DNA from: a virus | Taxonomy: Duplodnaviria; Caudoviricetes | Strand: one strand, 5' to 3' | IMG/VR virus record: IMGVR_UViG_3300032132_000748 | Length of the DNA stretch: 64,000 bases | Part shown: positions 17,306-42,712 of the stretch, one piece after another | Layout: every line of letters begins with the position of its first letter | How positions within the stretch are numbered: position 1 is the stretch's first letter | Position numbers and translations under genes: made by a program | Notes under the pieces: generated by a model | The model's input: the letters and a program-made list of their open reading frames with translations, nothing else | Told to the model about the DNA's origin: nothing | The model's database searches: none

Positions 17306-17416
17306 ACCATCATGGATGGCAACATGCCAGCATCAAGTTGGAGGGCCTAAGTCCTTTGCTGCCAAGGGGTTGCGTAAGTCCTTACGGGGCGGTCGAACAG
17401 GCCCCGGAGCGATGCT

Positions 17417-17640
17417 GGGCCTGTGCGGCTCCTGTGCTGGGCCTGTGCAGGGAGGGATGTAGGGCCTGTGCGGCTCCTGTGCTGGGCCTGTGCAGGGAGC
17501 GATGCTGGGCCTGTGCAGGGAGGGATGTAGGGCCTGTGCGGCTCCTGTGCTGGGCCTGTGTAGGGAGGGATGTTGGGCCTGTGCAGGGAGGGATGTAGGG
17601 CCTGTGCGGCTCCTGTGCTGGGCCTGTGCAGGGAGGGATG
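17417..17640 (+). repeat. tandem array of ten GGGCCTGTG-core units spaced 22-23 bp
   Basis: cores at 17417, 17439, 17462, 17484, 17507, 17530, 17552, 17575, 17598, 17620; two unit types. Confidence 0.92.
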
Positions 17641-17717
17641 ATGAAGGACGCATCTGGTGGCTCGGCTGCGGCTCTCCTAAGCCCTTGCGGGTGCTAGGCT
17701 TAGGGCCGGAGTTGGGG

Positions 17718-17745
17718 CTTGACTCTGCCCCAGGATACAGTATCA
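17718..17745 (+). promoter_or_regulatory. sigma70-like promoter
   Basis: TTGACT-N16-TATCAT upstream of the 17834 ORF. Confidence 0.5.
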
Positions 17746-17833
17746 TGGCGGGACTGTCAAGGGCGGGTCTGAGGACTCCCTGTGACAGCCTCTCATCCAT
17801 CGCGCATCATCTACGCCCAGAAGGACACCCATC

Positions 17834-18676
17834 ATGGTACAGCAACGGACTGCAAAGCCGAAGAAGAAAGCGGCTGCAAAGGCCGGACACAAGCATCGTG
17901 CCGCTGGCACGAAGAAAAAGAAGACCGGGGGCAAGAAGGGCTTGCTCGCAGCCATTGGCAAGAAGCCCACAACAGCCAAGAAGGCCAAAGAGGAAAAGCC
18001 AACCATCACCCTTGAGGATCAGGCTGAAACGTTGCTCGGGTTGCAGCAAGCCAAGGCGGATCTTGCGGAAGCCAAGGGGCGTGTTGCAGAGCTTGAGGCT
18101 GAGTTGCTTCCTGAGATGGAGGAGCACCGTCTTGGGCTTTGTGAGGCTCAGAGCAAGTACATTCGCTCCATCAACGTTCGCGCCACGGGCGAGGATGCCG
18201 ATGGTAACGAGATCAAGGCGGGCCAGGCGCTCTTCTACATCCAGAACCGCTACAGTGCCTTCGACCCCACAGCGCCCTCCACGGATGAGGACGTTATCAA
18301 TGCGGTAGGCGATGAAGCCACAATCCGCGACGAAGCAATCTTCTACATCGCTGCCGCGCTTGAGGTTGAGTGGGATGAGGCAGAAGAGCACTACGACACC
18401 CGCATCGAGGACAAGGTGGTTATCACCTTGAAGGATGGTGCTCTGGAAGATGAGGCCGTCATCGAGGTCCTGCAAGAGCACTTGCTTGAGTGGCTGGTTT
18501 CCACAACCAAGGCCACGCCTACAGAGTCTTTCCACGAGCGTAGCAACTTCATTGAGGAGGACAAGATTGTCATGGCTGCGCTCCAAGACGATGCCAACTT
18601 GTGCAAGCGTTCGAAGGGCACCGTAAAGGCGTCTGGTGCGCCCAAGGCAGCTCGCCGCGCAGTCAAGATCAAGTAA
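17834..18676 (+). CDS. hypothetical protein with K/A-rich N-terminus and acidic body
   Basis: AAGGA RBS, GC3-biased codons, followed by a hairpin. Confidence 0.7.
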   Translation: MVQQRTAKPKKKAAAKAGHKHRAAGTKKKKTGGKKGLLAAIGKKPTTAKKAKEEKPTITLEDQAETLLGLQQAKADLAEAKGRVAELEAELLPEMEEHRLGLCEAQSKYIRSINVRATGEDADGNEIKAGQALFYIQNRYSAFDPTAPSTDEDVINAVGDEATIRDEAIFYIAAALEVEWDEAEEHYDTRIEDKVVITLKDGALEDEAVIEVLQEHLLEWLVSTTKATPTESFHERSNFIEEDKIVMAALQDDANLCKRSKGTVKASGAPKAARRAVKIK

Positions 18677-18688
18677 CCACCAGATCCC

Positions 18689-18726
18689 GTGAAAGGGGCT
18701 GCATCGCCTAGATGCAGCCCCTTCAC
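18689..18726 (+). terminator. stem-loop after the 17834 ORF
   Basis: GTGAAAGGGGCTGCATC...GATGCAGCCCCTTCAC. Confidence 0.6.
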
Positions 18727-18741
18727 GCAATGAGGACCGCT

Positions 18742-19404
18742 ATGGGCTTTTTGACCATCTACCCAGACAAACCGCATGAACGTGACGATAGCAACTTAGC
18801 TAAGTGGGACAAGTCTGGCAAGTACATCTGCCAGCAAAAAGTCGATGGCTGGCGGATGATTCTTCTCATTGGAGAGGATGAGGTTGATTTTGTTTCTCGG
18901 CATGACAAGCTGTTCAGCAACGACATCCAACCGGAACTTTATGCTCAAGCAAGACAGCTATGTGGGATATTTCCTGCTGGAACACAGCTTGACAGTGAGT
19001 GGCTTTCACGACGCTCATGTAGTGTAAGCAACAAGGTCAAGGGCAAGATCCCAGCCAAGCTCATCATCTTTGACATCTTGCGGCTAGGCAAGAAATGGCA
19101 GAAGAGCACGACATACGAAGCTCGGTGGGACATCTTGCTTGAACGGCTAGGTGATATTCCCGATTCCATGCCAGACGTGAGCCTTTCCGTTGTGGCGGAA
19201 CCCGGAACGTTTGAAACCTTCTACGAGGAGCAGCGCAAGATCGCCGTCAGTGAAGGTGTGGTCATCAAGCACAAGAAATCCAAGATGACTGGTGCTCGCA
19301 ATGGATGCATAAAGAACATGCAGCACTACAAAGTCAAGTATCGGGGAGGCAGTGACGGCGAGCAGTCGATGGATCATCTCAAAAAGAGGCCCGCAAAAGT
19401 TTGA
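18742..19404 (+). CDS. minimal ATP-dependent DNA ligase-like nucleotidyltransferase
   Basis: QQKVDGWR (motif I), LDSEW, IFDIL, EGVVIK, YKVK; GAGGA RBS before ATG 18742. Confidence 0.8.
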   Translation: MGFLTIYPDKPHERDDSNLAKWDKSGKYICQQKVDGWRMILLIGEDEVDFVSRHDKLFSNDIQPELYAQARQLCGIFPAGTQLDSEWLSRRSCSVSNKVKGKIPAKLIIFDILRLGKKWQKSTTYEARWDILLERLGDIPDSMPDVSLSVVAEPGTFETFYEEQRKIAVSEGVVIKHKKSKMTGARNGCIKNMQHYKVKYRGGSDGEQSMDHLKKRPAKV

Positions 19405-19979
19405 CAATCTGGTTCTATAGCGATCCTCATTTTGGGCACGCAGGGATCATTGATCGCTGCGGACGCCCCTATGACTCTGTACAAGAGATGGATGAGAAGC
19501 TAATCCAGAACTACCAAAAGTGCGTAAAGCCAAGAGATGATGTCTACATTCTAGGAGATGTAGCCATGAAGGGCAGCCACGAGAAGATCCTTCGTCGGCT
19601 GCCAGGTAACAAACATCTCATCGTAGGCAACCACGATTGGAACAAGAATACTCGTATTACGGACTCCCACAAAGAGGCTTTGCGCTCCTGGGGCTACGCT
19701 TGGGTCAAAGACACCCACTTGCTGTGTGTAAAGAATTACCACGGCCCCAAAGATCATCTCTACATCTGGCTTGCACATTACGCGCATCTGACCTGGCCCA
19801 AAAAACACAGCAAAGGTGCCTGGCACCTATTCGGTCACTCTCACGGAAACCTAGAAGGCACTGGACTCTCGACGGATGTTGGGGTAGACTGTTGGGACTA
19901 CGCTCCCGTCAGCCTTTCCCAAATCAAAGAACATCTCAGTAAGAAGGAAAAGCATGGACCGCAACCTTCGGCGTCTTGA
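19401..19979 (+). CDS. calcineurin-like metallophosphoesterase
   Basis: SDPHFGH, LGDV, GNHD and GHSH motifs. Confidence 0.9.
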   Translation: MTIWFYSDPHFGHAGIIDRCGRPYDSVQEMDEKLIQNYQKCVKPRDDVYILGDVAMKGSHEKILRRLPGNKHLIVGNHDWNKNTRITDSHKEALRSWGYAWVKDTHLLCVKNYHGPKDHLYIWLAHYAHLTWPKKHSKGAWHLFGHSHGNLEGTGLSTDVGVDCWDYAPVSLSQIKEHLSKKEKHGPQPSAS

Positions 19980-20229
19980 GCGACGTGCGGCGGCTGAATA
20001 CCTCGATCCCGCAGAACAAGCACATCTTGTCCGACTACAATGTATGGCGTACGGTCACGATTGGGTTGAGGGCTGGGATGACCGGCAAAAGAACATTAAT
20101 AGTCGTGTCGAATACAAAGGGTTCTACTTTCACTGTGGTCGTTGTGACCCTAAAGCGGAACGGCGTATTACCGATATGGATGATCTAGGTGAAATAGACA
20201 TCTCAAAGGGACACGAAGAGGCGGCCTAG
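19954..20229 (+). CDS. hypothetical protein (MDRxLRxLER N-terminus)
   Basis: AAGGA RBS; C..GHDW...CxxC. Confidence 0.6.
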   Translation: MDRNLRRLERRAAAEYLDPAEQAHLVRLQCMAYGHDWVEGWDDRQKNINSRVEYKGFYFHCGRCDPKAERRITDMDDLGEIDISKGHEEAA

Positions 20230-31904: not shown

Positions 31905-32098
31905 CTCTATATGATACCAATTAAGTGTTTGGGTGCTGAGAGCATATTTTTTGATTATTATTTCTACGAAATCTGAGGCTGGAGTCCTAAGTCCTTGGAG
32001 AAGCTCGACTTAAGAAAATTTGGAGTTTGATGACACCGGGAGGCCCCCCGCTAGTCATTGGTAGTGAACAGGGAGTAAAACCTCTGCTCAACAATTAT

Positions 32099-32171
32099 CC
32101 GCTCGTAGCTCAATTAGAAGAGCACCCGGCTGTCTACTGGAAGGTTGCGAGTGCAAGTCTCGTCGAGCGGG
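32099..32171 (+). tRNA. tRNA-Asp(GUC)
   Basis: cloverleaf, CCGCTCG/CGAGCGG acceptor, loop CT-GTC-TA. Confidence 0.85.
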
Positions 32172-32262
32172 TCGTGTTAAAGGTCAGGTGATACTGCATC
32201 TTTATCACAAATGATTGTTCATTTACAATTCGGAAGAGTGTGCGCTGAAAGGCGTACATCAT

Positions 32263-32334
32263 GCACGTCGAGCCATAGTAGTGAGGCGACAGTCTGCAAA
32301 ACTGTATAACCCGGTGCAAGTCCGGGGGCGTGCT
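32263..32334 (+). tRNA. tRNA-Cys(GCA)
   Basis: cloverleaf, loop CT-GCA-AA, U73. Confidence 0.85.
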
Positions 32335-32340
32335 TAATTT

Positions 32341-32412
32341 TGCCTGGTGGTGTAATAGTAGTCACGTTTGGTTTTGAACCAAAAAGCGAAGGAGCGTAAC
32401 CTTCTCGGGCAG
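32341..32412 (+). tRNA. tRNA-Gln(UUG)
   Basis: cloverleaf, U1-A72, loop TT-TTG-AA. Confidence 0.8.
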
Positions 32413-32484
32413 TACCTGGTCGTCTAATTAGTAGGACGCAAGGCTTTGGACTTTGTAATGCTCGTGCGAATCGAGCCCAGGTAG
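32413..32484 (+). tRNA. tRNA-Gln(UUG)
   Basis: cloverleaf, loop CT-TTG-GA. Confidence 0.85.
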
Positions 32485-32488
32485 TTTT

Positions 32489-32559
32489 AGCCCGGTGGTG
32501 TAATAGTATCACTTCTGACTCTGACTTAGACAATGCGCGTGCGAATCGCGCCTGGGCTG
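32489..32559 (+). tRNA. tRNA-Gln(CUG)
   Basis: cloverleaf, loop CT-CTG-AC. Confidence 0.85.
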
Positions 32560-32594
32560 TTGCATATATTTGTATGCTTGTTACTATGCTTCTT

Positions 32595-33002
32595 ATGACT
32601 GACAAAACACAAACTGTAGCTCGATTGTTACGAAAAGGCGTTTGCCATGATTGTGAAGCTAAGCCTGGCGAATACCATGATATGGGTTGCGACGTAGAAC
32701 GTTGTCCTGATTGTGGTGGGCAATTAATAGCTTGTCAGTGTGACGAACCCCGTGAAACCTTCGATGAAGGTGAACGTTTGATTTGGACGGGGGTATGGCC
32801 AGGAACGGAAGAATGTATTGAATATGGATTCTTTAATAAATGGGTCGTAACAGGGACAAGGGAATTTAGGGGTCACACCCTAGAAACAGGAGACTGGATA
32901 CCTTGTGATATTGACGATCCTGACGCCTCGGCTGACCTATGTGAGCTTTCAGAAAAAGCTACATGGGATAGTAACAAGCGCAAATATGTGCTTAACAAAT
33001 AA
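32595..33002 (+). CDS. Cys-rich hypothetical protein
   Basis: CHDC...H..GCDVERCPDCGGQLIACQC. Confidence 0.7.
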   Translation: MTDKTQTVARLLRKGVCHDCEAKPGEYHDMGCDVERCPDCGGQLIACQCDEPRETFDEGERLIWTGVWPGTEECIEYGFFNKWVVTGTREFRGHTLETGDWIPCDIDDPDASADLCELSEKATWDSNKRKYVLNK

Positions 33003-33006
33003 TCCT

Positions 33007-33079
33007 GGGGGATTAGTTTAAACAGGTAAAACACAGCTTTTGCAAGGCTGAGAAAACGGAGCATTACCGTTATCCTCCA
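33007..33079 (+). tRNA. tRNA-Ala(UGC)
   Basis: G3:U70 pair, loop TT-TGC-AA. Confidence 0.85.
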
Positions 33080-33080
33080 T

Positions 33081-33209
33081 ACGGGCCGATTGTTTTCGGT
33101 TATCATTTCCTGAATAGAAAAAGGGGTGGGTTCGACTCCCACGCTCCCCATACGAGGGGAGTTGGTGTACGGTGCATGTAAAAACTACTCGAAGACGCTT
33201 ATTGCTCGT
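33081..33209 (+). ncRNA. Y RNA-like RNA 1 (GAA loop, permuted tRNA module)
   Basis: GGGCCGA/TTGCTC bulged helix, TGTTTTCGG/TCGAAGACG stem, GTTATC, then T-arm, capped acceptor, D-arm. Confidence 0.8.
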
Positions 33210-33214
33210 TATTT

Positions 33215-33287
33215 TCTCCTTTAGCTCAATAGTTAGAGTACCGGTTTGTTAAACCGAGGGATCTGGGTGCAATTCCCAGGGGGAGAG
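33215..33287 (+). tRNA. tRNA-Asn(GUU)
   Basis: cloverleaf, loop TT-GTT-AA. Confidence 0.85.
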
Positions 33288-33345
33288 TTAATATTTTTAA
33301 CAGTAATATTTATCACAAACGTCTTAAATATGTGCAATAAATTTT

Positions 33346-33419
33346 GCCTCCATAGCTCAATTAAGCAGAGCAGCAGGTTTTTACCCTGAAGGTTGAAAGT
33401 GCAATTCTTTCTGGAGGTA
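33346..33419 (+). tRNA. tRNA-Lys(UUU)
   Basis: cloverleaf, loop TT-TTT-AC. Confidence 0.85.
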
Positions 33420-33460
33420 TTGTGTTTAACAAATTGTTTGTTAGACTAATGAAATAACAA

Positions 33461-33528
33461 ATGGGCCGAATGTCTTAGGTTATCTTGACTTGTAATCAAA
33501 CCTCCACCTAAAACAACTTTTTGCTCAT
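33461..33528 (+). ncRNA. Y RNA-like RNA 2 (minimal; UGU anticodon hairpin)
   Basis: ATGGGCCGAA...TTGCTCAT, TGTCTTAGG/CCTAAAACA stem, TTGA-CTTGTAA-TCAA hairpin. Confidence 0.75.
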
Positions 33529-33538
33529 TACTACACTA

Positions 33539-33619
33539 GCCGGTGTGGTGGAACGGCAGACACGCGACATTTAGGATGTCGTGCCTTAGGGCGTGGGGGT
33601 TCAAATCCCTTCACCGGCA
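33539..33619 (+). tRNA. tRNA-Leu(UAG)
   Basis: long variable arm, loop TT-TAG-GA, canonical TTC T-loop. Confidence 0.92.
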
Positions 33620-33621
33620 TA

Positions 33622-34140
33622 ATGCGAGAATCTAAATATACAAAGAAATTACTTGCTCCGATGGTTAAAAGAGCGACATCTATTGCAGAAGTTTTAGACG
33701 AGCTTTGTCTCAAACCCTCAGGAGGAAATTATAGAAATATTAAAGGGCACATTGTAAGACATAACATAGATATATCTCATTTTACAGGTCAAGCCTGGAG
33801 TAGAGGTAAAACTGTTGAAACTTCACCAGCAGTTAAGCGAATAACTAGACTTATATCCTATAAAGATTCTGAAATTTTCAAAAAAAATACCAATTGGAAC
33901 AACAGAGAGCTAATAAAACGTCTCTTTAAAGATGGAAAGAAATATGCATGTGAAATTAAAAAATGTCCTTTGTATGGCCAAGAAACCCCTGAATGGGCTG
34001 AAAAGAAACTAACTTTACATCTTGATCATATCGATGGTAATAAAACAAATAATGAAAAAGAAAACTTAAGATTTATTTGTCCAAATTGTCATCAACAAAC
34101 CCCTACTTGGGGTAACAGTAAGGCTTCGTGGCAGACTTAG
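33622..34140 (+). CDS. HNH homing endonuclease
   Basis: LHLDHIDGNKTNNEKENLRFICPNCHQQTPTW. Confidence 0.9.
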   Translation: MRESKYTKKLLAPMVKRATSIAEVLDELCLKPSGGNYRNIKGHIVRHNIDISHFTGQAWSRGKTVETSPAVKRITRLISYKDSEIFKKNTNWNNRELIKRLFKDGKKYACEIKKCPLYGQETPEWAEKKLTLHLDHIDGNKTNNEKENLRFICPNCHQQTPTWGNSKASWQT

Positions 34141-34204
34141 TAATGCACCAGACTCTTAATCTGGGATCGAAAGATCAATGTGGGTGCGAACCCCACCGAA
34201 GTTA
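34122..34204 (+). tRNA. tRNA with Lys(CUU) anticodon and long variable arm
   Basis: loop CT-CTT-AA, GATC-GAAA-GATC extra arm, 3-bp D stem. Confidence 0.8.
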
Positions 34205-34210
34205 TAAAAA

Positions 34211-34272
34211 GCGGGCCGCTAATATTCGGTTATCTATTTTGAAGAAACCCCCGAATATATTCTTTTGCTCGT
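34211..34272 (+). ncRNA. Y RNA-like RNA 3 (minimal; UUG loop)
   Basis: GCGGGCCG...TTGCTCGT, ATATTCGG/CCGAATAT stem, GTTATC. Confidence 0.7.
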
Positions 34273-34283
34273 AATAAAATAAA

Positions 34284-34357
34284 CGGAGAGTAGCGTAGTC
34301 TGGTATCGCGCTGCGTTTGGGACGCAGAGATCGCAGGTTCAAATCCTGTCTCTCCGA
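34284..34357 (+). tRNA. tRNA-Pro(UGG)
   Basis: canonical cloverleaf, loop TT-TGG-GA. Confidence 0.92.
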
Positions 34358-34360
34358 ATT

Positions 34361-34444
34361 GGATCATAAACTTGACAAGGGTCAGGCGCGGTTTTGAAAA
34401 CCGATGGTGCTGAAAGGTATGGGGTGCAAGTCCTCTGTGATCCG
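34361..34444 (+). tRNA. tRNA-Ser(UGA)
   Basis: GGA start, long variable arm, G73, loop TT-TGA-AA. Confidence 0.8.
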
Positions 34445-34446
34445 TA

Positions 34447-34546
34447 ATGGGCCGAATGTTTTTGGTTATCTAATTGGCAAAGAACCCTGGTTTAACAGGG
34501 AAAGAAGGTTCAAATCCTTCATACTTCAAAAACACCATTTGCTCAT
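34447..34546 (+). ncRNA. Y RNA-like RNA 4 (GGC/D-like loop, extra hairpin, T-arm)
   Basis: ATGGGCCGAA...TTGCTCAT, TGTTTTTGG/TCAAAAACA stem, GAAGG-TTCAAAT-CCTTC T-arm. Confidence 0.75.
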
Positions 34547-34549
34547 ATT

Positions 34550-34639
34550 GGAAACGATCCGGTTAGATGAGGAGCATGTTTGCTAAACATGTAATGCTTA
34601 CGTGAGTAGGTATTGGGGGTGCGAATCCCTCCGTTTCCG
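34550..34639 (+). tRNA. tRNA-Ser(GCU)
   Basis: long variable arm, loop TT-GCT-AA. Confidence 0.85.
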
Positions 34640-34701
34640 TTAAGTTTGTTGTCTTTATACATTATTTTGTATAATTAAACCTCTTTAAGAGGTTAATTAT
34701 C

Positions 34702-34968
34702 ATGGCAAGCCCGACAGCAATAGCAGCAGCAAAAAAAGAACTAGCAGAAGCAACATTGGCAATGAATGTGCCGTCTTGCACTCAGGGACCCGCACAAGGA
34801 TTACCAGCGGTTGTTTGTAATCCAGCTCTAGCTGCGAAAACAGAACAAGCAGGAAAGAAACTTGCAGCCCTTATGGGTGGCGGCGGTCATATGAAAATGA
34901 TTCTTCTTACTGTGGCTGTAGCAGCGGGTATCGGCGGCTTCCTTTGGTGGAAGAAAAAGAAATCGTAG
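34702..34968 (+). CDS. small tail-anchored membrane protein
   Basis: LMGGGG, then TM and WWKKKKS; TATAAT and AGAGG RBS. Confidence 0.65.
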   Translation: MASPTAIAAAKKELAEATLAMNVPSCTQGPAQGLPAVVCNPALAAKTEQAGKKLAALMGGGGHMKMILLTVAVAAGIGGFLWWKKKKS

Positions 34969-35004
34969 TATTGACTCCTCGATTATCCCTGTTAATTTAG
35001 GTGT

Positions 35005-35361
35005 ATGAAATCACCGAAAATCGACTCCATCGAGTGGGGTCAAATCAAAGTAAACGAACAAACTTTTAAAGATGTCAGACTATTCCCCGGAGGAGTAGAA
35101 GGCTGGGATTGGCGAAAAACAGACACGCATCACAGGCCCGGCATTCAGATTGCTGATCTTGAAGGGTTAATGGATGCAGATATTGTTGTTCTAAGTAAAG
35201 GTTTCAAAGGTTGTCTGTGTTGCATGGATGAGACAATTAAGCATCTAGAAGATGCCGGAAAGATTGTTTATCACGAAGAAACAAAAGAAGCGGTAGAGAC
35301 ATATAACTCATTTGTTGAAAATGAAAGTAAAGTGTCAGCTTTAATTCACTCTACTTGCTAA
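35005..35361 (+). CDS. Mth938-like (DUF498/AAMDC) protein
   Basis: SPKIDSIEWG..FKD..LFPGG..WDWRKTDTHHRPGIQ...EAVETYN...ALIHSTC. Confidence 0.85.
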   Translation: MKSPKIDSIEWGQIKVNEQTFKDVRLFPGGVEGWDWRKTDTHHRPGIQIADLEGLMDADIVVLSKGFKGCLCCMDETIKHLEDAGKIVYHEETKEAVETYNSFVENESKVSALIHSTC

Positions 35362-35365
35362 AAAT

Positions 35366-35449
35366 GGACAGTAGACCAGATGGGATCTGGCCTCGCTTGG
35401 AAAGCGAGTGGTGCCCTAGCGGCATGAGGATCGAGACCTCTGTTGTCCG
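35366..35449 (+). tRNA. tRNA-Ser(GGA)
   Basis: long variable arm, loop TT-GGA-AA. Confidence 0.82.
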
Positions 35450-35500
35450 AAATTAGTTGACAGGACTCTTCGAGTTCTGAGTCATCTAAATAACAAGCTT

Positions 35501-35571
35501 GGGTCCATAGTGTAACAGCAGCATACCGGCTTCCAAACCCGTTGGTGAGGGTGCAAATCCTTCTGGACTCG
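35501..35571 (+). tRNA. tRNA-Trp(CCA)
   Basis: loop TT-CCA-AA, G73; weak anticodon stem. Confidence 0.75.
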
Positions 35572-35578
35572 TTATTTA

Positions 35579-35650
35579 GGGTGCGTGGTGTAACAGCTAG
35601 CACTAGAGCCTGAAAAACTCTCGGAGAAGGTGCAATTCCTTCCGTGCCCA
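35579..35650 (+). tRNA. tRNA-Phe(GAA)
   Basis: cloverleaf, loop CT-GAA-AA. Confidence 0.85.
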
Positions 35651-35696
35651 ATTAATCAAACCCATCCTTAAAGGAGGATACTATGAGGAGAATTGA

Positions 35697-35972
35697 AACA
35701 AGAAATTAAAAGAGATCCGCTTCCGACCACGGATAGCGGATCATGATCTGAAGATCAGGGTGAAACAAGCCAAGAACTTCCTAGATAAAGGTCACCGAGT
35801 AAAGGTAACCGTAATATTTTGGGGTAGAAAGTTTTCAGACCGTAAGCATTTTATGAAAGATGCTGAACAACGGTTGAAAGTGTTCGAAAGTCTTGGTAAA
35901 GTGGTGTCACCCGTGAAGATGAACGGATCAAATTACTCAATGATACTTGAGTCAGTCAAGAAGAAAGAGTAA
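35697..35972 (+). CDS. infC: translation initiation factor IF3, C-terminal domain only; homology begins upstream of the first in-frame start
   Basis: frame reads KEIRFRPRIADHDLKIRVKQAKNFLDKGHRVKVTVIFWGR; in-frame TGA at 35694. Confidence 0.8.
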   Translation, partial: NKKLKEIRFRPRIADHDLKIRVKQAKNFLDKGHRVKVTVIFWGRKFSDRKHFMKDAEQRLKVFESLGKVVSPVKMNGSNYSMILESVKKKE

Positions 35973-35980
35973 TACATGTT

Positions 35981-36052
35981 GGCCCTATCGTCTAGCAGTT
36001 AGGATACTAGTTTCTCGAACTAGTGACGCCGGTGCAAATCCGGCTGGGGTTA
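35981..36052 (+). tRNA. tRNA-Glu(CUC)
   Basis: cloverleaf, loop TT-CTC-GA. Confidence 0.85.
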
Positions 36053-36060
36053 TTAAAATT

Positions 36061-36136
36061 GGGTGCGTGGCCAAACTGGATAAGGCATCTCGCTACGAAC
36101 GAGAAGATTTTGCAGGTTCGAATCCTGCCGTGCTCA
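36061..36136 (+). tRNA. tRNA-Arg(ACG)
   Basis: canonical cloverleaf, loop CT-ACG-AA. Confidence 0.9.
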
Positions 36137-36147
36137 TATAAAAACAC

Positions 36148-36220
36148 GCTCCTAAAGCATAAGTAGTGATGTGCCTGTCTTGTAAGCAGGAAAACGTGGG
36201 TGCAAATCCCCGTGGGAGCT
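36148..36220 (+). tRNA. tRNA-Thr(UGU)
   Basis: cloverleaf, loop CT-TGT-AA. Confidence 0.82.
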
Positions 36221-36223
36221 TTT

Positions 36224-36294
36224 GGGTCCTTAGTGAAGTAGAATCACGCTAGGTTTCGAACCTTGTATCGAGGGTGCAAATCCTTCAGGACCTA
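36224..36294 (+). tRNA. tRNA-Arg(UCG)
   Basis: cloverleaf, loop TT-TCG-AA. Confidence 0.85.
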
Positions 36295-36303
36295 TTAATA
36301 CTC

Positions 36304-36375
36304 GCCTCCGTGGTGTAACAGAAGCACGCTTCTCTTCTAAAGAAGATGGTTCGGGTGCAAATCCTGACGGGGGTA
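36304..36375 (+). tRNA. tRNA-Arg(UCU)
   Basis: cloverleaf, loop CT-TCT-AA. Confidence 0.85.
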
Positions 36376-36381
36376 TTAAAT

Positions 36382-36452
36382 GCGGGATTGATGTAGCAGT
36401 AGCATGACATCCTTCCAAGTTGTTCGCACGGGTGCAAATCCCGTATCCCGCT
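36382..36452 (+). tRNA. tRNA-Gly(UCC)
   Basis: GCG start, U73, loop CT-TCC-AA. Confidence 0.85.
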
Positions 36453-36470
36453 TTTTGGTATAATGTTTTC

Positions 36471-36803
36471 ATGGGCTATGAAGCATTCGGTAACTTTGGA
36501 AGAACTCCTGAAGAAGTAATAGAAACCGCAAAGAAACAAAAGAAAATAGAGACTGCCGCAAGAGCGGTTTTACATCCTCTTTCTACTATTGTTTCAGGAA
36601 CAGCTAAAGTAGCTGGAGGAAACGGAAAACCTGTTGATGAGGAGCTTTATATTAAGGCCATTATTATCAAAATAATGAAAGACAAAGGTCTTCATCCTCA
36701 TGCTTCACTAGAAGATTTAATTCGCAAAACAGTTAAACAAGTAATGCGAGAAGAATCAGCAGGGCATCCTCATTGGAAACATCCAACGCTAAAAAGAAAA
36801 TAA
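36471..36803 (+). CDS. hypothetical protein
   Basis: ATG 6 nt after TGG-TATAAT; MGYEAFGNFG start. Confidence 0.6.
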   Translation: MGYEAFGNFGRTPEEVIETAKKQKKIETAARAVLHPLSTIVSGTAKVAGGNGKPVDEELYIKAIIIKIMKDKGLHPHASLEDLIRKTVKQVMREESAGHPHWKHPTLKRK

Positions 36804-36806
36804 TTT

Positions 36807-36878
36807 GGGTCTATAGTGTAATAGATAACATGTTTCTCTCCTAAAGAAACGATCTGGGTGCGACTCCCGGTAGACCTA
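36807..36878 (+). tRNA. tRNA-Arg(CCU)
   Basis: cloverleaf, loop CT-CCT-AA. Confidence 0.85.
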
Positions 36879-36879
36879 T

Positions 36880-37013
36880 TGATGGGCCGATAATTGTCAG
36901 TTATCGTTATCATAAAACCAAGGCGACGGTTCGATTCCGTCCCCCGCGATTCGTAGCGGGGTGGAGTAATGGCAGCTCGTGAAAAACACTTGACAGTGAC
37001 CCTTTGCTCATCA
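36880..37013 (+). ncRNA. Y RNA-like RNA 5 (CAU loop, permuted initiator-tRNA-like module)
   Basis: TGATGGGCCGA...TTGCTCATCA, ATTGTCAG/TTGACAGT stem; TCATAA, T-arm, CCCCGC/GCGGGG, D-arm. Confidence 0.82.
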
Positions 37014-37028
37014 GTCATATACATACAA

Positions 37029-37114
37029 GCTAGCGTGGCGTAATTAGCAGGCGCGGAAGGCTTAAACCCTTCTGGGAGTTAAATCCCGTGCAGGTGCAAA
37101 TCCTGTCGCTAGCA
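37029..37114 (+). tRNA. tRNA-Leu(UAA)
   Basis: long variable arm, loop CT-TAA-AC. Confidence 0.87.
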
Positions 37115-37240
37115 TTTGATGGGCCGAATTGTTTTCGGTTATCGCATTCCAAGCCGGAAGTCAGGGCGCGAATCCCTGCTTTGTAGTGTAATAGTAGCAC
37201 GCCGTAAAAAACGTCGAAGACGCATTTATTGCTCATCAAA
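37115..37240 (+). ncRNA. Y RNA-like RNA 6 (UCC loop, permuted module lacking acceptor stem)
   Basis: TTTGATGGGCCGAA...TTGCTCATCAAA; T-arm CAGGG/CCCTG then D-arm GTGT/GCAC. Confidence 0.8.
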
Positions 37241-37244
37241 ACCA

Positions 37245-37317
37245 CCTGGGTAGGTGTAATTAGAAGTCACGCGTATCTGTGGAATACGAGGATTGGGTGC
37301 AAACCCCAGACCCAGGA
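37245..37317 (+). tRNA. tRNA-His(GUG)
   Basis: loop CT-GTG-GA; A at -1 and at 73. Confidence 0.8.
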
Positions 37318-37320
37318 TAA

Positions 37321-37391
37321 GCCCGATTAGTTCAATAGTAGAATGTATGTGTGACTTACATAAGACAAAGGTGCGATTCCTTTATCGGGCA
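37321..37391 (+). tRNA. tRNA-Val(GAC)
   Basis: cloverleaf, loop GT-GAC-TT. Confidence 0.8.
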
Positions 37392-37411
37392 TGATATGTT
37401 ATTCTTTAGAT

Positions 37412-38068
37412 ATGCTTTGCGAGAATTGTAAAAAATATTCCTATAAAGGACCGCTTCCTAACTGTGGGGTGTGCCCTAAATCAGAATTTACTCCAAATCT
37501 ATTTATTAGAATTCCAAAAACGGCTAGTGTTTCTATTCATGTGGTGCCAGGCATTGATGCCTACCACAAAGTTGTGTCAGGAATAGGGCATAATACTGCC
37601 GAACAACTTAAGGAGTTTCTTGGAGAGGATCTATACAACTCGCGGTTCACCTTTGCTATAGCCAGAAATCCTTATGACCGACTGGTAAGTGCTTACCACT
37701 ATTTTGTTCAAAAAGCCGCCCGTAAATGGTCCAAAGCCCTTGCTAAAGAATTCCCAACATTCAAAAGTTTTTGCTATCAATTTAATAGGGAAAAATACGA
37801 AGGTGAGAGGCAACAGTTTAGATTACAAAAAGAATTTGTTGTTGATAAGAATGATGAAGTAATTGTTGATTACATTGGGAGGTTTGAGTCCTTACACCAA
37901 TCCTGGGAAGTAATTAAAAAAAGGCTCAATTTGAGTGACAGTTTAGACCACCTAAACAAGTCTAAACATAAGGCATGGCAGTCATATTATGACGAAAAAT
38001 GTCAGGATATAGTTTATAGAAGCTACAAAGAAGATTTTGAGTTTTTTGGCTATCCGGAAAAAATATAG
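37412..38068 (+). CDS. sulfotransferase (Sulfotransfer_2-like)
   Basis: FIRIPKTASVSI, RNPYDRLVSAY, DYIGRFESL, DFEFFGY. Confidence 0.85.
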   Translation: MLCENCKKYSYKGPLPNCGVCPKSEFTPNLFIRIPKTASVSIHVVPGIDAYHKVVSGIGHNTAEQLKEFLGEDLYNSRFTFAIARNPYDRLVSAYHYFVQKAARKWSKALAKEFPTFKSFCYQFNREKYEGERQQFRLQKEFVVDKNDEVIVDYIGRFESLHQSWEVIKKRLNLSDSLDHLNKSKHKAWQSYYDEKCQDIVYRSYKEDFEFFGYPEKI

Positions 38069-38139
38069 CGGCCTATAGTAGAGAAGCAGCACGCTTGTTT
38101 TACACGCAAGAAAAGATGGAGCGTTACCATCTAGGCCGA
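38069..38139 (+). tRNA. tRNA-Val(UAC)
   Basis: cloverleaf, loop TT-TAC-AC. Confidence 0.8.
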
Positions 38140-38142
38140 TAT

Positions 38143-38216
38143 TGGTGTTTCGTCTAATTGGTAAAGATCCTGTGCTCATAACACAGATAATCTCGGTTCG
38201 AGTCCGAGGGCACCAA
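38143..38216 (+). tRNA. tRNA-Met/Ile2(CAU)
   Basis: canonical cloverleaf, loop CT-CAT-AA. Confidence 0.85.
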
Positions 38217-38221
38217 ACTAC

Positions 38222-38294
38222 GCCCCTGTAGTATAATAGATAATTACAAGTCTTTGGTAAGGACTAGACCCGCGTGCAATTCGCGGCAGGGGCT
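38222..38294 (+). tRNA. tRNA-Thr(GGU)
   Basis: cloverleaf, loop TT-GGT-AA. Confidence 0.82.
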
Positions 38295-38327
38295 TGATGA
38301 TATTATCATAAAAGCTATAAAGCTATT

Positions 38328-38978
38328 ATGGCCGCTCCTCATCCAAAAAATACTAATTTTTACCAAGACACCTTAAATTTGAGACAAAGATATCGGTTGA
38401 GTAATCAACAAATAAACGATATTATCAATAATAAGGAAAAAAGAGTAAGTCAATCAGCGATAAACGGCTGGCTTAAAAAATTTCCTCTTTCCGGGGAGGA
38501 GCGACTAGAGAGTTTTGTCAAAAATATGAAACTCACCCGCTACAATCCCGGAGAACCTTCTAAATTTTGGACCCCTGAAATCAAAAATTTTAGTCGAAAT
38601 CAAGTTGGTAAAATAGCAGAAGCAGCGATTCTTTATCGACTGCTCCTTAACAACCACACAGTTTACTGCTCTCCTTTTGATGGAGACGTTGCTGACTGGT
38701 TGGTAGTTACACCTACTAAAAGCTACAAAATTCAAGTGCGAAAAGCTAAAACTCCAAAAACAGGTAAACCTATCATTTCTCTGTGTTGTAAGGACAACTC
38801 TAAAACAGATGAAATAATGAGGAGATTAACAGCCAATGACTACGATTTTATCGTGGGATATGATATCTATAAAGATAATGCTTACGTTTTTTCTTATGAG
38901 GAAACAAAAAATAATAAGACTTCTATAACAATAAGAGATGATGCACTTGAGGCGTGGCATAAAATAAGTTGTTTATAG
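38328..38978 (+). CDS. PD-(D/E)XK homing-type endonuclease with N-terminal HTH
   Basis: GKIAE...DWLV...KIQVR...DYDFIVGY, as in group I intron-associated PD-(D/E)XK nucleases. Confidence 0.75.
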   Translation: MAAPHPKNTNFYQDTLNLRQRYRLSNQQINDIINNKEKRVSQSAINGWLKKFPLSGEERLESFVKNMKLTRYNPGEPSKFWTPEIKNFSRNQVGKIAEAAILYRLLLNNHTVYCSPFDGDVADWLVVTPTKSYKIQVRKAKTPKTGKPIISLCCKDNSKTDEIMRRLTANDYDFIVGYDIYKDNAYVFSYEETKNNKTSITIRDDALEAWHKISCL

Positions 38979-39021
38979 TTACAAATATTGCGATGTCAGA
39001 GCCATCTGATATCATCCAAAT

Positions 39022-39429
39022 ATGGCCTATTCCGAAAAAGTTGTAGATCACTTCAATAATCCACGAAATGTTGGATCATTAAACAAGAATGATCTAGACG
39101 TAGGAACTGGTATTGTCGGTGCCCCCGAATGTGGGGACGTAATGCGTTTACAACTCAAAATAAAGAACAATATTATTCAAGAAGCGAAATTTAAGACCTT
39201 CGGTTGTGGTTCAGCCATAGCAAGTTCTTCATTAGCTACTGAATGGGTCTTAGGAAAGTCCCTTGATGAGGCTAATAAAATAAAGAATGTTCAATTCGTT
39301 GAAGAACTATCTTTACCTCCTGTAAAAATACACTGTAGTGTGCTCGCAGAAGATGCGATCAAGGCTGCAATTAAAGACTACAAAGCAAAACAAAACACCA
39401 AAGTCGAAGACTTTACAGTTAAAGTATGA
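39022..39429 (+). CDS. iscU: Fe-S cluster scaffold IscU
   Basis: MAYSEKVVDHF.NPRNVG, GAPECGDVM, KFKTFGCGSAIASSS, LPPVKIHCS. Confidence 0.97.
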   Translation: MAYSEKVVDHFNNPRNVGSLNKNDLDVGTGIVGAPECGDVMRLQLKIKNNIIQEAKFKTFGCGSAIASSSLATEWVLGKSLDEANKIKNVQFVEELSLPPVKIHCSVLAEDAIKAAIKDYKAKQNTKVEDFTVKV

Positions 39430-39653
39430 CTGATCTAGCTGATCTTCAGCGGATTCTCAAAGAGATGAGAAAAGAAAATAAAAGACTTCGATCAGAACGA
39501 AAACATTTCATAGCTAGAGATGGTCTACGACACTTAAATAATTACACCATTAGAACAATAGAATCATCTTACTACCAAGATAAAAAAGGTAGATACAGAT
39601 GCCAAGATTGTAAACGTTTTGTAATTGAACCTCGACATACAACGCTCTTATAG
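39426..39653 (+). CDS. hypothetical protein
   Basis: ATGA-coupled to iscU; CxxC. Confidence 0.45.
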   Translation: MTDLADLQRILKEMRKENKRLRSERKHFIARDGLRHLNNYTIRTIESSYYQDKKGRYRCQDCKRFVIEPRHTTLL

Positions 39654-39715
39654 TTTAATTAGTAGAATCTCTGTTTCGTAATCAGAGGGAGTCAGTGCAA
39701 TTCTGACTAAGAGCT
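39644..39715 (+). tRNA. tRNA-Thr(CGU)
   Basis: cloverleaf, loop TT-CGT-AA. Confidence 0.82.
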
Positions 39716-39733
39716 TTTGGTATAATTCGTATC

Positions 39734-40015
39734 ATGCAATTATCCTACTACACAACACCAGGAACCGGACCCTTAAGCTGGCAAAAAACAAACGAAAATG
39801 TTCGTAAAGTCAGTGATAATGAATTTCGTAAGCATACGTCTTCATTTTATGACCTAGATGGCAAAAAAGAAGGCTTTCTTTCAAAGTTAGCCAAAGCTTT
39901 CAAAGGCAAGAAGAAACGTCCAAAAGGTTCTTGGGGGTTACGTGTTGGTCATAGAGGAGATACCTCTCAGCGACCAGGATTTTTGCAGGGCATTGACGAT
40001 CACTGGTGGGGTTAA
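39734..40015 (+). CDS. hypothetical protein
   Basis: ATG 7 nt after TGG-TATAAT. Confidence 0.55.
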   Translation: MQLSYYTTPGTGPLSWQKTNENVRKVSDNEFRKHTSSFYDLDGKKEGFLSKLAKAFKGKKKRPKGSWGLRVGHRGDTSQRPGFLQGIDDHWWG

Positions 40016-40096
40016 GTCCTTCAACTTCAAGCATTTAAGAAAATATCAATCAAGTGACAGCTAACTTCGGTTAGTTAGTCATTAATATACAACCGC

Positions 40097-40168
40097 AGCG
40101 GTATGGTGTAAGTAGTAACTCACTAATTTCATACGTTAGAGTTATGGGTGCAAGTCCCGTTACCGCTA
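40097..40168 (+). tRNA. tRNA-Met/Ile2(CAU)
   Basis: AGCGGTA/TACCGCT acceptor, loop TT-CAT-AC. Confidence 0.78.
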
Positions 40169-40172
40169 TTAC

Positions 40173-40243
40173 GGGGATATGGTGAAACAGGATCATATTT
40201 GCCTGGCAGGCAAAAGTTTTGGGCGCGATTCCCAATATCTCCA
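40173..40243 (+). tRNA. tRNA-Ala(GGC)
   Basis: G3:U70, loop CT-GGC-AG. Confidence 0.83.
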
Positions 40244-40246
40244 TAT

Positions 40247-40384
40247 ATGATGGGCCGACTTTGTTTTCGGTTATCGATCTACGGAATCCGTGGAGGAGGT
40301 TCGAATCCTTCACTCTCGATACGTCGAGAGTTAGTGTAATGGTAGCACACGCAAACCCCGAGGACGCCCTTTATTGCTCGTCAT
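40247..40384 (+). ncRNA. Y RNA-like RNA 7 (ACG loop, permuted tRNA module)
   Basis: ATGATGGGCCGA...TTGCTCGTCAT; GAT-CTACGGA-ATC hairpin, T-arm, ACTCTCGA-TACG-TCGAGAGT capped acceptor, D-arm. Confidence 0.82.
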
Positions 40385-40388
40385 GTTT

Positions 40389-40462
40389 CAGGCTGTAGCT
40401 CAGCTTAGTAGAGCGCTAGTTCGGGGAACTAGAAGTCGCAGGTGCGAATCCTGTCAGCCTGA
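40389..40462 (+). tRNA. tRNA-Pro(GGG)
   Basis: C1-G72, A73, loop TC-GGG-GA (C33). Confidence 0.8.
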
Positions 40463-40514
40463 TTTTTTAAAAGTGTCAATCATATTGACTGGAGCAGAAG
40501 GAAAAGGTGAACCG

Positions 40515-41582: not shown

Positions 41583-41599
41583 TGTTATGATATAAATAG

Positions 41600-41804
41600 T
41601 TCTAATACAGCCCCGTTTGCTCTATTAGAAGTATGAGTGGTTGCCAAAACCACTCCGATGATATAATACTCACCGAGTATATCTAGCGGAAGACGGGCCG
41701 CTAGCTTAAATGAGGACCTGTGCCAGCCTCAAATCGGCACCACCCACTTGGGGTTAGTAATTTTGCTGCCCCTTAAATTAAAATCAACTAATAGGAGGTT
41801 GACT
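41600..41804 (+). ncRNA. putative structured leader RNA with pseudoknot
   Basis: consecutive hairpins; TGAGG/CCTCA stem whose loop GTGCC pairs with downstream GGCAC. Confidence 0.5.
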
Positions 41805-42712
41805 ATGACACCGCTAAACGCATTTTAACTCGATTTGAGGAATTCGGATTTCCTCTCCATATCGACAAAAACATTCTTCCGAATGACAATTCAACTGTCT
41901 TTGTTTGCTCAGGGATGCAACAGGTTAAAGAGAGATTCTCAAATCCTGACGGATCCAAATACGGCTCACTTCAGAGCTGCATTAGAACAAACGATATAGA
42001 CTTAATCGGTGATGGCTCACATCTCACATATTTTGAGATGATGGGCAATTTTTCTTTTGGGGGCGATGATTACTTTGCTTCAATTGATCTTTGGGATTGC
42101 TTACTCAAAGATCTAAAAATCCCCGTTACCCACATTACCGTTCACCCAACTCAGGATCACCACAAACAATATTGGCTCAATAAGGGCTACCAAGTCAAAC
42201 CGGACGAAGAATGTGTCTGGAGCGACGGAAATATTGGTGGATATTGTTGTGAGGTATTTGTAGGAGACCTAGAGATAGGTAACCTAGTTAATACTTTGGG
42301 ACACTCGACAGACGTTGGGTTTGGTTTCGAGAGAATTATTCAAATAATCGAGCAAAAGTCTAGAGTAGACGAAACTTCGATATTTGACCAGACTCTCCAC
42401 CCAATTGTTCGGGACCACTACCGAACATTACTATCCCTCAAAGAAAATGGGGTAGATCCTGGCTATAAAAGTAGAAACTGTATTACTCGAAGGCTACTTC
42501 ATCGTGCCCTCGACCTAGAAGATCAATCTAAACTATCTGAATTTTCAGAATGGATTGAATCTGAAAAGCAGCTCTACGAAAAAAAGCTTAGAACTGCTAA
42601 GAGAGTTTGGAAGAAGCATAAAAAGAAGCCCTACTCCTGGTGGAAAGAAAGCTTCGGTTTAACAGAGGACGAGTATGATCTTCTTGTTAAGATGAAAGCT
42701 AAGCCAGGTTAA
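41795..42712 (+). CDS. truncated alanyl-tRNA synthetase-like protein (aminoacylation domain only)
   Basis: ILPNDNSTVFVCSGMQQ, QSCIRTNDIDLIGDGSHLTYFEMMGNFSFG, LEIGNLV, DVGFGFERI, DHYRT; frame open from 41795, first in-frame ATG 41915. Confidence 0.82.
   Translation, partial: EVDYDTAKRILTRFEEFGFPLHIDKNILPNDNSTVFVCSGMQQVKERFSNPDGSKYGSLQSCIRTNDIDLIGDGSHLTYFEMMGNFSFGGDDYFASIDLWDCLLKDLKIPVTHITVHPTQDHHKQYWLNKGYQVKPDEECVWSDGNIGGYCCEVFVGDLEIGNLVNTLGHSTDVGFGFERIIQIIEQKSRVDETSIFDQTLHPIVRDHYRTLLSLKENGVDPGYKSRNCITRRLLHRALDLEDQSKLSEFSEWIESEKQLYEKKLRTAKRVWKKHKKKPYSWWKESFGLTEDEYDLLVKMKAKPG

What the first reader, a model, noticed from the sequence alone, without database searches (positions are those of the whole stretch)
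33081..40384. Seven Y RNA-like ncRNAs hidden in the tRNA array
Seen: seven non-coding units (33081, 33461, 34211, 34447, 36880, 37115, 40247), most directly behind a tRNA, share one architecture: GGGCCG, an 8-9-bp stem, GTTATC, variable cargo, an A/C-rich linker, the stem partner, a pyrimidine bulge, TTGCTC. The inner stem covaries between copies (TGTTTTCGG/TCGAAGACG, TGTCTTAGG/CCTAAAACA, ATATTCGG/CCGAATAT, TGTTTTTGG/TCAAAAACA, ATTGTCAG/TTGACAGT), and so do the terminal pairs. Established: GGGC-C-GA paired to UUGCUC forms the bulged-C helix that Ro60/Rsr binds in Y RNAs (GGUCCGA/UUGACU in vertebrates). As I recall it, GUUAUC also follows the stem in human Y1. Bacterial Y RNAs normally occur as one or two genes beside rsr. 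Inference: an expanded, modular viral Y RNA family that is co-transcribed and processed with the tRNAs.
Basis: partly seen in the sequence, partly recalled or inferred. Interest (0 to 1): 0.95.

Follow-up and report, generated by a model that had tools for sequence, protein, structure and literature searches.

The report
Y RNAs that display tRNA anticodons
A giant bacterial virus carries seven small RNA genes among its tRNA genes, each with the docking handle for the RNA-surveillance protein Ro60; five also display a tRNA anticodon loop, a design I did not find in the papers I could search, and my leading but unproven guess is that they are baits against host enzymes that cut tRNAs.

Summary
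The seven units are real: 7 matches against 0.01 expected, with paired inner stems and orthologs in two related viruses. The handle is a Ro60-type Y RNA module. It sits beside ro60 in 22/80 viral and 31/80 prokaryotic loci and inside tRNA arrays of other Ro60 jumbo phages.

U1, U5 and U7 are whole circularly permuted tRNAs (Phe GAA, initiator-type Met CAU, Arg ACG). U6 is one lacking the acceptor stem (Gly UCC). U2 is a bare Thr UGU anticodon stem-loop. U4 has the D-anticodon-T order. U3 is minimal. Published YrlA lacks the anticodon loop. Here it is kept with compensatory changes, and 13/80 handle RNAs beside ro60 carry an exact tRNA loop (shuffle mean 0.14).

Best mechanism (about 45%): Ro60-held baits or inhibitors of host anticodon nucleases. 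Not shown: expression, Ro60 binding, and Ro60 in this genome (only an unchecked scan note). The scan noted related designs on other DNA before.

The parts
33081..33209 (+). U1: Y handle plus whole circularly permuted tRNA; anticodon loop CUGAAUA (Phe GAA, U37) at 33110-33116, T arm 33126-33142, closed 7-bp acceptor stem, D arm
   Evidence: ortholog L131:9245 keeps the loop while the T arm differs at 5 of 17 positions
33460..33529 (+). U2: Y handle plus a bare Thr(UGU) anticodon stem-loop (loop CUUGUAA at 33489-33495, 4-bp stem)
   Evidence: minimum-energy fold; identical stem-loop in ortholog L131:9875; loop equals real tRNA loops; weak Rfam Y_RNA match, 19.1 bits, E 5.1
34211..34272 (+). U3: minimal Y RNA (Yrn2/YrlB-like hairpin); no conserved anticodon loop
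   Evidence: ortholog L131:10629 keeps the handle, not the loop
34447..34546 (+). U4: Y handle in place of the acceptor stem; D arm, anticodon-position hairpin with 6-nt loop (34485-34500), T arm (34504-34520), in normal tRNA order (Yrn1-like)
   Evidence: Rfam tRNA model positions 7-64, E 0.015; degenerate ortholog L131:11103
36880..37013 (+). U5: Y handle plus whole permuted initiator-type tRNA-Met; loop AUCAUAA at 36909-36915, T arm 36925-36941, acceptor stem 6/7 with 1:72 mismatch
   Evidence: body without the anticodon arm best matches Met(CAU) tRNAs; orthologs L131:13830 and L121:3285 with compensatory changes
37117..37238 (+). U6: Y handle plus permuted tRNA-Gly(UCC) with the acceptor stem deleted; loop AUUCCAA at 37146-37152, T arm 37162-37178
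   Evidence: ortholog L121:3511 keeps a 7-bp acceptor stem ending C70 G71 C72 U73
40248..40383 (+). U7: Y handle plus whole permuted tRNA-Arg; loop CUACGGA at 40279-40285, T arm 40295-40311, 7-bp closed acceptor stem
   Evidence: weak Rfam YrlA match, 20.2 bits against gathering score 69; orthologs L121:8955 (ACG) and L131:19275 (UCG)
32098..40463 (+). tRNA array (about 30 tRNA genes; the seven inspected have no encoded CCA) that hosts the Y RNAs and holds normal tRNAs with the same anticodons
40515..41399 (+). RNA ligase (PF09414) closing the array; syntenic in both relatives; functional link inferred only

Best explanation
These are seven Y RNA genes of a giant bacterial virus (858,992-bp contig). 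SHOWN IN SEQUENCE: all share a Ro60-type handle made of a bulged-C terminal helix, an 8-9-bp inner stem and GUUAUC. U1, U5, U6 and U7 are circularly permuted tRNAs with the handle grafted into the 5' strand of the anticodon stem (after nt 27, 28 or 29). The anticodon loop is kept, and the 5-bp stem is completed by bases that follow the D arm. U2 shows only an anticodon stem-loop. INFERRED: the RNAs are cut out of tRNA-array transcripts and loaded on Ro60 (viral or host), which protects their ends. MOST LIKELY JOB: they act as baits or competitive inhibitors for host enzymes that read anticodon loops, chiefly anticodon nucleases of antiviral defence and toxin-antitoxin systems. This would spare the real tRNAs, with the neighbouring RNA ligase serving tRNA repair. 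My odds: Ro60-type Y RNA 0.9; anticodon display real and selected 0.85; decoy or inhibitor role about 0.45.
For: Handle. Anticodon arm: 5/5 split stem in all four long units at a fixed offset from the T arm (shuffle P 0.012-0.036 each). Re-permuted U1, U5 and U7 are called tRNA-Phe, -Met and -Arg by ARAGORN at default threshold. Compensatory changes in orthologs: U7 GAT/ATC, GAC/GTC, GCT/AGC; U5 GTT/AAC, GTA/TAC, GAC/GTT; U6 CCG/CGG to TCG/CGA. Anticodon unchanged in 5 of 6 ortholog pairs, the sixth staying in the Arg box. Elsewhere, 13/80 handle RNAs beside ro60 carry an exact tRNA loop closed by 3 or more bp; null mean 0.14, maximum 2 in 2000 shuffles. For bait rather than decoder: U2 is loop only and U6 has no acceptor stem; normal tRNAs with the same anticodons are in the array; A32 occurs in 6/15 ends-out units against 11/570 real tRNAs; U1 has U37; in bacterial inside-out relatives, 90-98% identical bodies carry different anticodons; Leu and Ser anticodons are kept although bacterial LeuRS and SerRS do not read them (own knowledge). 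Literature: YrlA was proposed as a competitive inhibitor of an anticodon nuclease, and the Salmonella rsr-yrl-rtcB operon responds to anticodon-cut tRNAs including Phe, fMet and Leu UAG (PMC7790460); phage tRNAs are proposed to counter such nucleases (PMC10264068).
Against: No function was tested. ViennaRNA does not favour the anticodon helix in the long units (pair probabilities 0-0.21; model 8-18 kcal/mol above the minimum-energy fold), so it rests on comparative evidence. Exact 7-bp acceptor stems and the fMet-type 1:72 mismatch are kept, which a pure bait would not need. Within this virus lineage the anticodons are stable, not rapidly diversifying. Non-canonical A32 or U37 could lower nuclease recognition. 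U3 and U4 have no conserved anticodon loop. Ro60 in this genome is unverified by me.
Confidence: 0.45

Rival explanations
1. Adaptor model: each RNA tethers Ro60 (with or without PNPase) to a specific aminoacyl-tRNA synthetase or other tRNA-reading enzyme through identity elements, to redirect, sequester or degrade parts of the host translation machinery.
For: Tethering Ro60 to an effector is the shown role of Yrn1, and a tRNA-binding effector was predicted for YrlA (10.1101/312249). Bases 34-36 are kept while 32, 33 and 37 drift. Gly C72/U73, the fMet body and a Leu long variable arm are retained. U2 recalls the thrS-operator anticodon mimic (own knowledge).
Against: Leu and Ser anticodons are kept though their synthetases ignore them (own knowledge). 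Bacterial relatives swap anticodons on one body. The body matches the anticodon isotype for Met and Leu, but not for Phe, Arg or (top hit) Gly.
Confidence: 0.2
2. Precursors of working, nuclease-resistant tRNAs: RNase P and CCA addition open the closed acceptor stem (as in M. smegmatis YrlA), giving a chargeable two-piece tRNA, or the handle is spliced out and the RNA ligase seals it.
For: 7/7 acceptor pairs in exact register in U1, U7 and several orthologs. [quoted passage not shown] Inside-out forms with free acceptor ends are common beside ro60 (54 in 40 loci). An RNA ligase is adjacent.
Against: U2 and U6 cannot be charged, and L121's U5 has a degenerate T arm. The junction varies from 27/28 to 29/30. 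U5 lacks the three G-C anticodon pairs of initiators. Same-anticodon tRNAs are already encoded. A handle with bound Ro60 at nt 27-30 should clash with the ribosome (inference).
Confidence: 0.15
3. Ribosome-directed mimic: the Ro60 particle pairs with cognate codons in empty A sites of stalled ribosomes, to block starvation sensors such as RelA or to deliver PNPase to stalled complexes.
For: Complete tRNA shape with anticodon and a blocked CCA end; a phage Ro60-Yrl-PNPase complex has been shown (PMC12135203).
Against: Loop-only and minimal units do not fit; A32 and U37 weaken decoding geometry; steric doubt about the handle.
Confidence: 0.1
4. The anticodon loops are leftovers of the tRNA origin of Y RNAs. 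Only the handle and elbow matter (generic RYPER-type RNA decay), and the expansion is redundancy.
For: Y RNAs are proposed to arise from dimeric tRNA transcripts. The anticodon helix is not favoured by energy. U3 and U4 lack it.
Against: Loops stay constant while T and acceptor stems diverge; there are compensatory changes; exact loops occur on minimal RNAs with no other tRNA part.
Confidence: 0.1

Closest known systems
YrlA, tRNA-like Y RNA of bacteria and phages (Rfam RF02553; Chen 2014 PMC4201824; Wang 2018 10.1101/312249)
   Same: T arm, closed acceptor stem, D arm order; GNCGA start; YUAY motif; association with Ro60; found in phages.
   Different: YrlA lacks the anticodon loop, whereas U1, U5, U6 and U7 keep a full anticodon arm. 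Both strands of the bulged-C helix are kept here; only the 5' strand is recognisable in Salmonella and M. smegmatis. U7 scores 20.2 bits against gathering score 69. No ro60 gene lies within the window.
Deinococcus Yrn1 and Yrn2
   Same: Two-stranded bulged helix with GGC-N-GA; U4 has the Yrn1-type order with a 5-bp stem and 6-nt loop; U3 is a Yrn2-like hairpin; Yrn1 and Yrn2 are co-transcribed with a tRNA.
   Different: No Rfam hit to a Deinococcus Y RNA model was listed. Here the YrlA-type and Yrn1-type layouts sit on one handle in one genome, although they were proposed to have evolved independently.
Vertebrate Y RNA (RF00019) and nematode stem-bulge RNAs
   Same: Bulged-C lower stem, upper stem and UUAUC loop motif.
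   Different: GGGC rather than GGUC before the bulge, with the partner strand changed to match; tRNA-derived cargo; U2 scores 19.1 bits against 38.
Thermus phage phiLo Ro60 with Yrl1 and Yrl2 (PMC12135203)
   Same: A phage Ro60-Y RNA system; binds host PNPase.
   Different: Two RNAs adjacent to ro60; no anticodon display mentioned in the passages read.
Circularly permuted tRNA genes of algae and archaea
   Same: Closed acceptor stem; 3' half precedes 5' half.
   Different: Those are spliced to working tRNAs; here the junction carries a Ro60 handle and varies in position.

Membership tests
Y RNA (Ro60-bound class) | Terminal helix with a single bulged C and the 5' GGNC-C-GA strand | tested here: met
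   All 18 units from three genomes; A after the bulge-G is replaced in U3 and one ortholog
Y RNA (Ro60-bound class) | Upper stem followed by the UUAUC/YUAY motif | tested here: met
   motif described
Y RNA (Ro60-bound class) | The handle type co-occurs with a TROVE/Ro60 gene | tested here: met
   4/4 virus records, control negative; 22/80 viral and 31/80 prokaryotic ro60 loci, nearly all same strand
Y RNA (Ro60-bound class) | Ro60 encoded by this genome or its host | tested here: inconclusive
   Contig not searchable; not among the top 120 hits of two Ro60 searches; only unchecked note e1-5634432 places ro60 145 kb downstream; host unknown
Y RNA (Ro60-bound class) | Expressed as discrete RNAs and bound by Ro60 | not testable with these tools
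   Needs small-RNA sequencing and a binding assay
YrlA (RF02553) | T arm, closed acceptor stem, D arm order | tested here: met
   U1, U5, U7; U6 without acceptor stem; not U2, U3, U4
YrlA (RF02553) | GNCGAAN0-1G motif | tested here: inconclusive
   Full in U2 and U4, GNCGAA in U6, GNCGA in U1, U5, U7, absent in U3
YrlA (RF02553) | No anticodon loop; anticodon stem runs into the Ro60 module | tested here: not met
   Anticodon loop and 5-bp stem present; definition
YrlA (RF02553) | Rfam gathering score 69 bits | tested here: not met
   20.2 bits for U7; no gathering hit in the window
YrlA (RF02553) | Within about 4 kb of ro60 | tested here: inconclusive
   None of the large ORFs scanned around the array hit TROVE (not every ORF was scanned); remote arrays also occur in G006 and G007
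Yrn1-type Y RNA | D, anticodon-like (6-nt loop), T order on the Ro60 stem | tested here: met
   U4 only
Functional permuted tRNA gene | Complete cloverleaf on re-permutation | tested here: met
   U1, U5, U7 called by ARAGORN; U6 not called
Functional permuted tRNA gene | Fixed splice junction and mature charged tRNA | tested here: inconclusive
   Junction varies; processing cannot be tested here

The most novel reading that the evidence does not exclude
Ro60 particles are a programmable tRNA-decoy platform. One ancient handle (bulged-C helix plus UUAUC, shared with animal Y RNAs) displays interchangeable anticodon loops, whole or bare, that titrate or inhibit anticodon nucleases. Giant viruses stock a panel of them for counter-defence, and bacteria keep them beside ro60 for protection. 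This would name the long-sought effector of tRNA-like bacterial Y RNAs and define a large class missed by Rfam.
Probability: 0.35. Interest if true: 0.9.

Novelty: new variant of a known kind. Interest (0 to 1): 0.72.

Why it matters
What the tRNA-like domain of bacterial Y RNAs binds is still open. RNAs that differ mainly in a named anticodon make it directly testable: swap the loop and see which partner or protection follows. The class is missed by Rfam yet present beside about a third of the ro60 loci sampled (from one Ro60 clade), and it links bacterial and viral Y RNAs to animal ones through the two-stranded helix and UUAUC. It would also add an RNA-based route to phage counter-defence against tRNA-cutting immunity.

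Tried and rejected
Ro60 in this genome: no whole genome is held, the ENA contig is not searchable, two Ro60 homolog searches did not list the 858,992-bp contig in their top 120, P0256 lies on another contig, and walking 145 kb exceeded the look-up cap.

Expression: no RNA holder was listed; this is no evidence either way.

Searches that led nowhere: a tight handle pattern and the ligase found no close relatives in IMG/VR. Most of the pattern hits lack the inner stem and were treated as chance. Ligase relatives at 65-67% identity have no array nearby.

Readings rejected: an anticodon loop for U3 or U4, because it is not conserved in the ortholog. The exhaustive re-permutation was too permissive and was replaced by a fixed-rule parse. 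The 45/92 tally mixes ends-out and inside-out forms and was replaced. The promoter scan showed no excess over shuffles. The contig does not look like a simple dimer: NifU occurs once per contig.

Literature gaps: three reviews and Burroughs and Aravind 2016 were not held, so a prior description there cannot be excluded.


Full report
Observation. The seven units exist as described. GGGCCG-N8-14-GTTATC occurs seven times on the + strand and nowhere else in the window, against 0.01 expected. Each closes with TTGCTC. Inner stems pair at 7-8 of 8 positions (shuffle P 0.001-0.03 each), and the helix positions outside the invariant core vary as base pairs across 18 units from three genomes. Six units begin 3-8 nt after a tRNA, and all end 4-19 nt before the next one. 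Rfam gives no gathering-level hit; U2 matches Y_RNA at 19.1 bits and U7 matches YrlA at 20.2 bits.

Context. The window lies on an 858,992-bp ENA contig. It has phage-type genes (clamp loader, integrase, DNA and RNA ligases, HNH nuclease) and about 30 tRNAs, so I infer a giant bacterial virus. I did not test capsid genes, and the host is unknown. Two relatives have the syntenic array: TARA scaffolds L115/L131 with eight units, and Logan contig L121 with three units in the part held.

The handle is a Ro60-type Y module. Its 5' strand matches the Rsr-protected bases of Deinococcus Yrn1 and the YUAY motif of YrlA (PMC4201824). UUAUC is also the loop motif of vertebrate Y and nematode stem-bulge RNAs (PMC4726728). 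Four IMG/VR records (three lineages) found only by this DNA pattern all encode TROVE just downstream on the same strand, and a chance-match control does not. Conversely, a strict descriptor finds the handle in 22/80 viral and 31/80 prokaryotic ro60 loci, almost all on the ro60 strand. These loci come from one Ro60 clade, the best hits to my alignment. Two Ro60-encoding jumbo phages carry 6 and 4 or more units inside tRNA arrays over 100 kb from ro60, the arrangement implied here. Ro60 in this genome rests only on an unchecked scan note (e1-5634432); my attempts to verify it failed.

The cargo. With one fixed rule (4-nt variable region before the T arm), U1, U5, U6 and U7 parse as anticodon loop, 3' anticodon strand, T arm, closed acceptor stem, D arm. 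The 5-bp anticodon stem is complete in all four. It is split between bases before the loop and bases after the D arm: 4+1, 3+2, 2+3 and 3+2 (shuffle P 0.012-0.036 each). The handle is therefore grafted in after nt 27-29. Re-joined in tRNA order, U1, U5 and U7 are called tRNA-Phe(GAA), -Met(CAU) and -Arg(ACG); U6 (Gly UCC) lacks the acceptor stem, which its L121 ortholog keeps. With the anticodon arm removed, the U5 body best matches Met(CAU) tRNAs, and the extra TARA unit best matches Leu(UAG) tRNAs and has UAG at 34-36. This agreement is not seen for Phe, Arg or, as top hit, Gly. Orthologs keep the stems by double changes and keep the anticodon in 5 of 6 pairs while T arms differ at 2-8 of 17 positions. 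U2 is the handle plus a bare Thr(UGU) stem-loop, identical in the relative. U4 has D, 6-nt-loop hairpin and T in normal order, like Yrn1. U3 is minimal, with no conserved loop. Caveat: energy models do not favour the anticodon helix in the long units; its support is comparative.

The design is general. Of 80 distinct handle RNAs beside ro60, 13 carry an exact tRNA anticodon-loop heptamer closed by at least 3 bp right after GUUAYC. Shuffles give a mean of 0.14 and a maximum of 2 in 2000; some of the 13 come from related genomes. Ends-out forms like these (40 in 25 loci) and their inside-out permutants with free acceptor ends (54 in 40 loci) both occur; 15 and 23 of them pass a U33/R37/M38 loop test. 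A32 is frequent in ends-out forms (6/15) and rare in real tRNAs (11/570). In bacterial inside-out forms, bodies 90-98% identical carry different anticodons.

Mechanism. Shown: the architecture, its conservation and the Ro60 association of the handle type. Inferred: release from tRNA-array transcripts (precedent), Ro60 loading, and the role. I favour bait or competitive inhibitor of anticodon nucleases (0.45). The loop is the smallest conserved payload, several units cannot be charged, true tRNAs with the same anticodons are present, and decoding features drift. Leu and Ser anticodons are kept although their synthetases ignore them (own knowledge). Ro60 operons respond to anticodon-cut tRNAs, and YrlA was proposed as such an inhibitor (PMC7790460); phage tRNAs are proposed to counter these nucleases (PMC10264068). 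Rivals: synthetase adaptor (0.2), precursor of chargeable tRNA (0.15, favoured by the exact 7-bp acceptor stems), ribosome-directed mimic (0.1) and relic (0.1).

Comparison and novelty. The RNAs work like YrlA and Yrn RNAs, but they fail strict YrlA membership: YrlA lacks the anticodon loop (10.1101/312249) and the Rfam score is far below threshold. I found no description of anticodon-displaying Y RNAs in the papers searched, but key reviews were not held. The scan has noted related designs on other DNA; I treated those as leads. Verdict: new variant of a known kind, interest 0.72.

Noticed in passing
window 35684-35972 +: An IF3 C-terminal domain (PF00707, E 1e-21) has no in-frame ATG/GTG/TTG start. 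A short ORF MRRIETRN behind a Shine-Dalgarno site overlaps it in another frame, and the same arrangement is in the TARA relative. A conserved -1 frameshift or an unusual start codon is possible; the short ORF has AGG-AGA codons.
   Followed up: partly
window 41915-42712 +: Short (265 aa) alanyl-tRNA synthetase-like protein with only the catalytic N-terminal part (PF01411); 263 aa in L121, so the short form is conserved.
   Followed up: no
window 41590-41830 +: Hairpin-rich non-coding stretch between the RNA ligase and the short AlaRS gene, conserved in L121; possible leader or small RNA. Its GGGCCG is not a Y handle.
   Followed up: partly
ENA contig ERZ27248692 k141_839137: The contig is 858,992 bp, very large for a bacterial virus; NifU occurs once on it. 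Unchecked scan notes suggest jelly-roll capsid genes and no tail genes.
   Followed up: no
L131:8934-9078 +: Eighth Y unit in the TARA relative, with a class II Leu body, long variable arm and UAG at 34-36; absent from the window at the syntenic spot (33002-33007).
   Followed up: yes
L121:6033-7496 +: The NifU/IscU ortholog is split by an intein (PF14890) and followed by two endonuclease VII genes.
   Followed up: no
L219:4175, L227:4212, L230:4375, L279:787, L261:4150 and 4332: Inside-out tRNA-Y hybrids of Longimicrobium and Gemmatimonadota MAGs: near-identical bodies with different anticodons, one reading UCA.
   Followed up: partly
window 33622-34140 and 38328-38978 +: HNH and PD-(D/E)XK endonuclease genes inside the tRNA array, probably homing endonucleases.
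   Followed up: no
window 14000-20000: G+C rises to 53-59% against about 40% elsewhere, with long overlapping ORFs on both strands (14711-17350 + and 14948-17305 -).
   Followed up: no
window tRNA array 32098-40463: Many tRNAs have G instead of U at position 55 of the T loop (GTGCAA/GTGCGA), and no classical initiator tRNA is seen; the only initiator-type body is inside U5.
   Followed up: no
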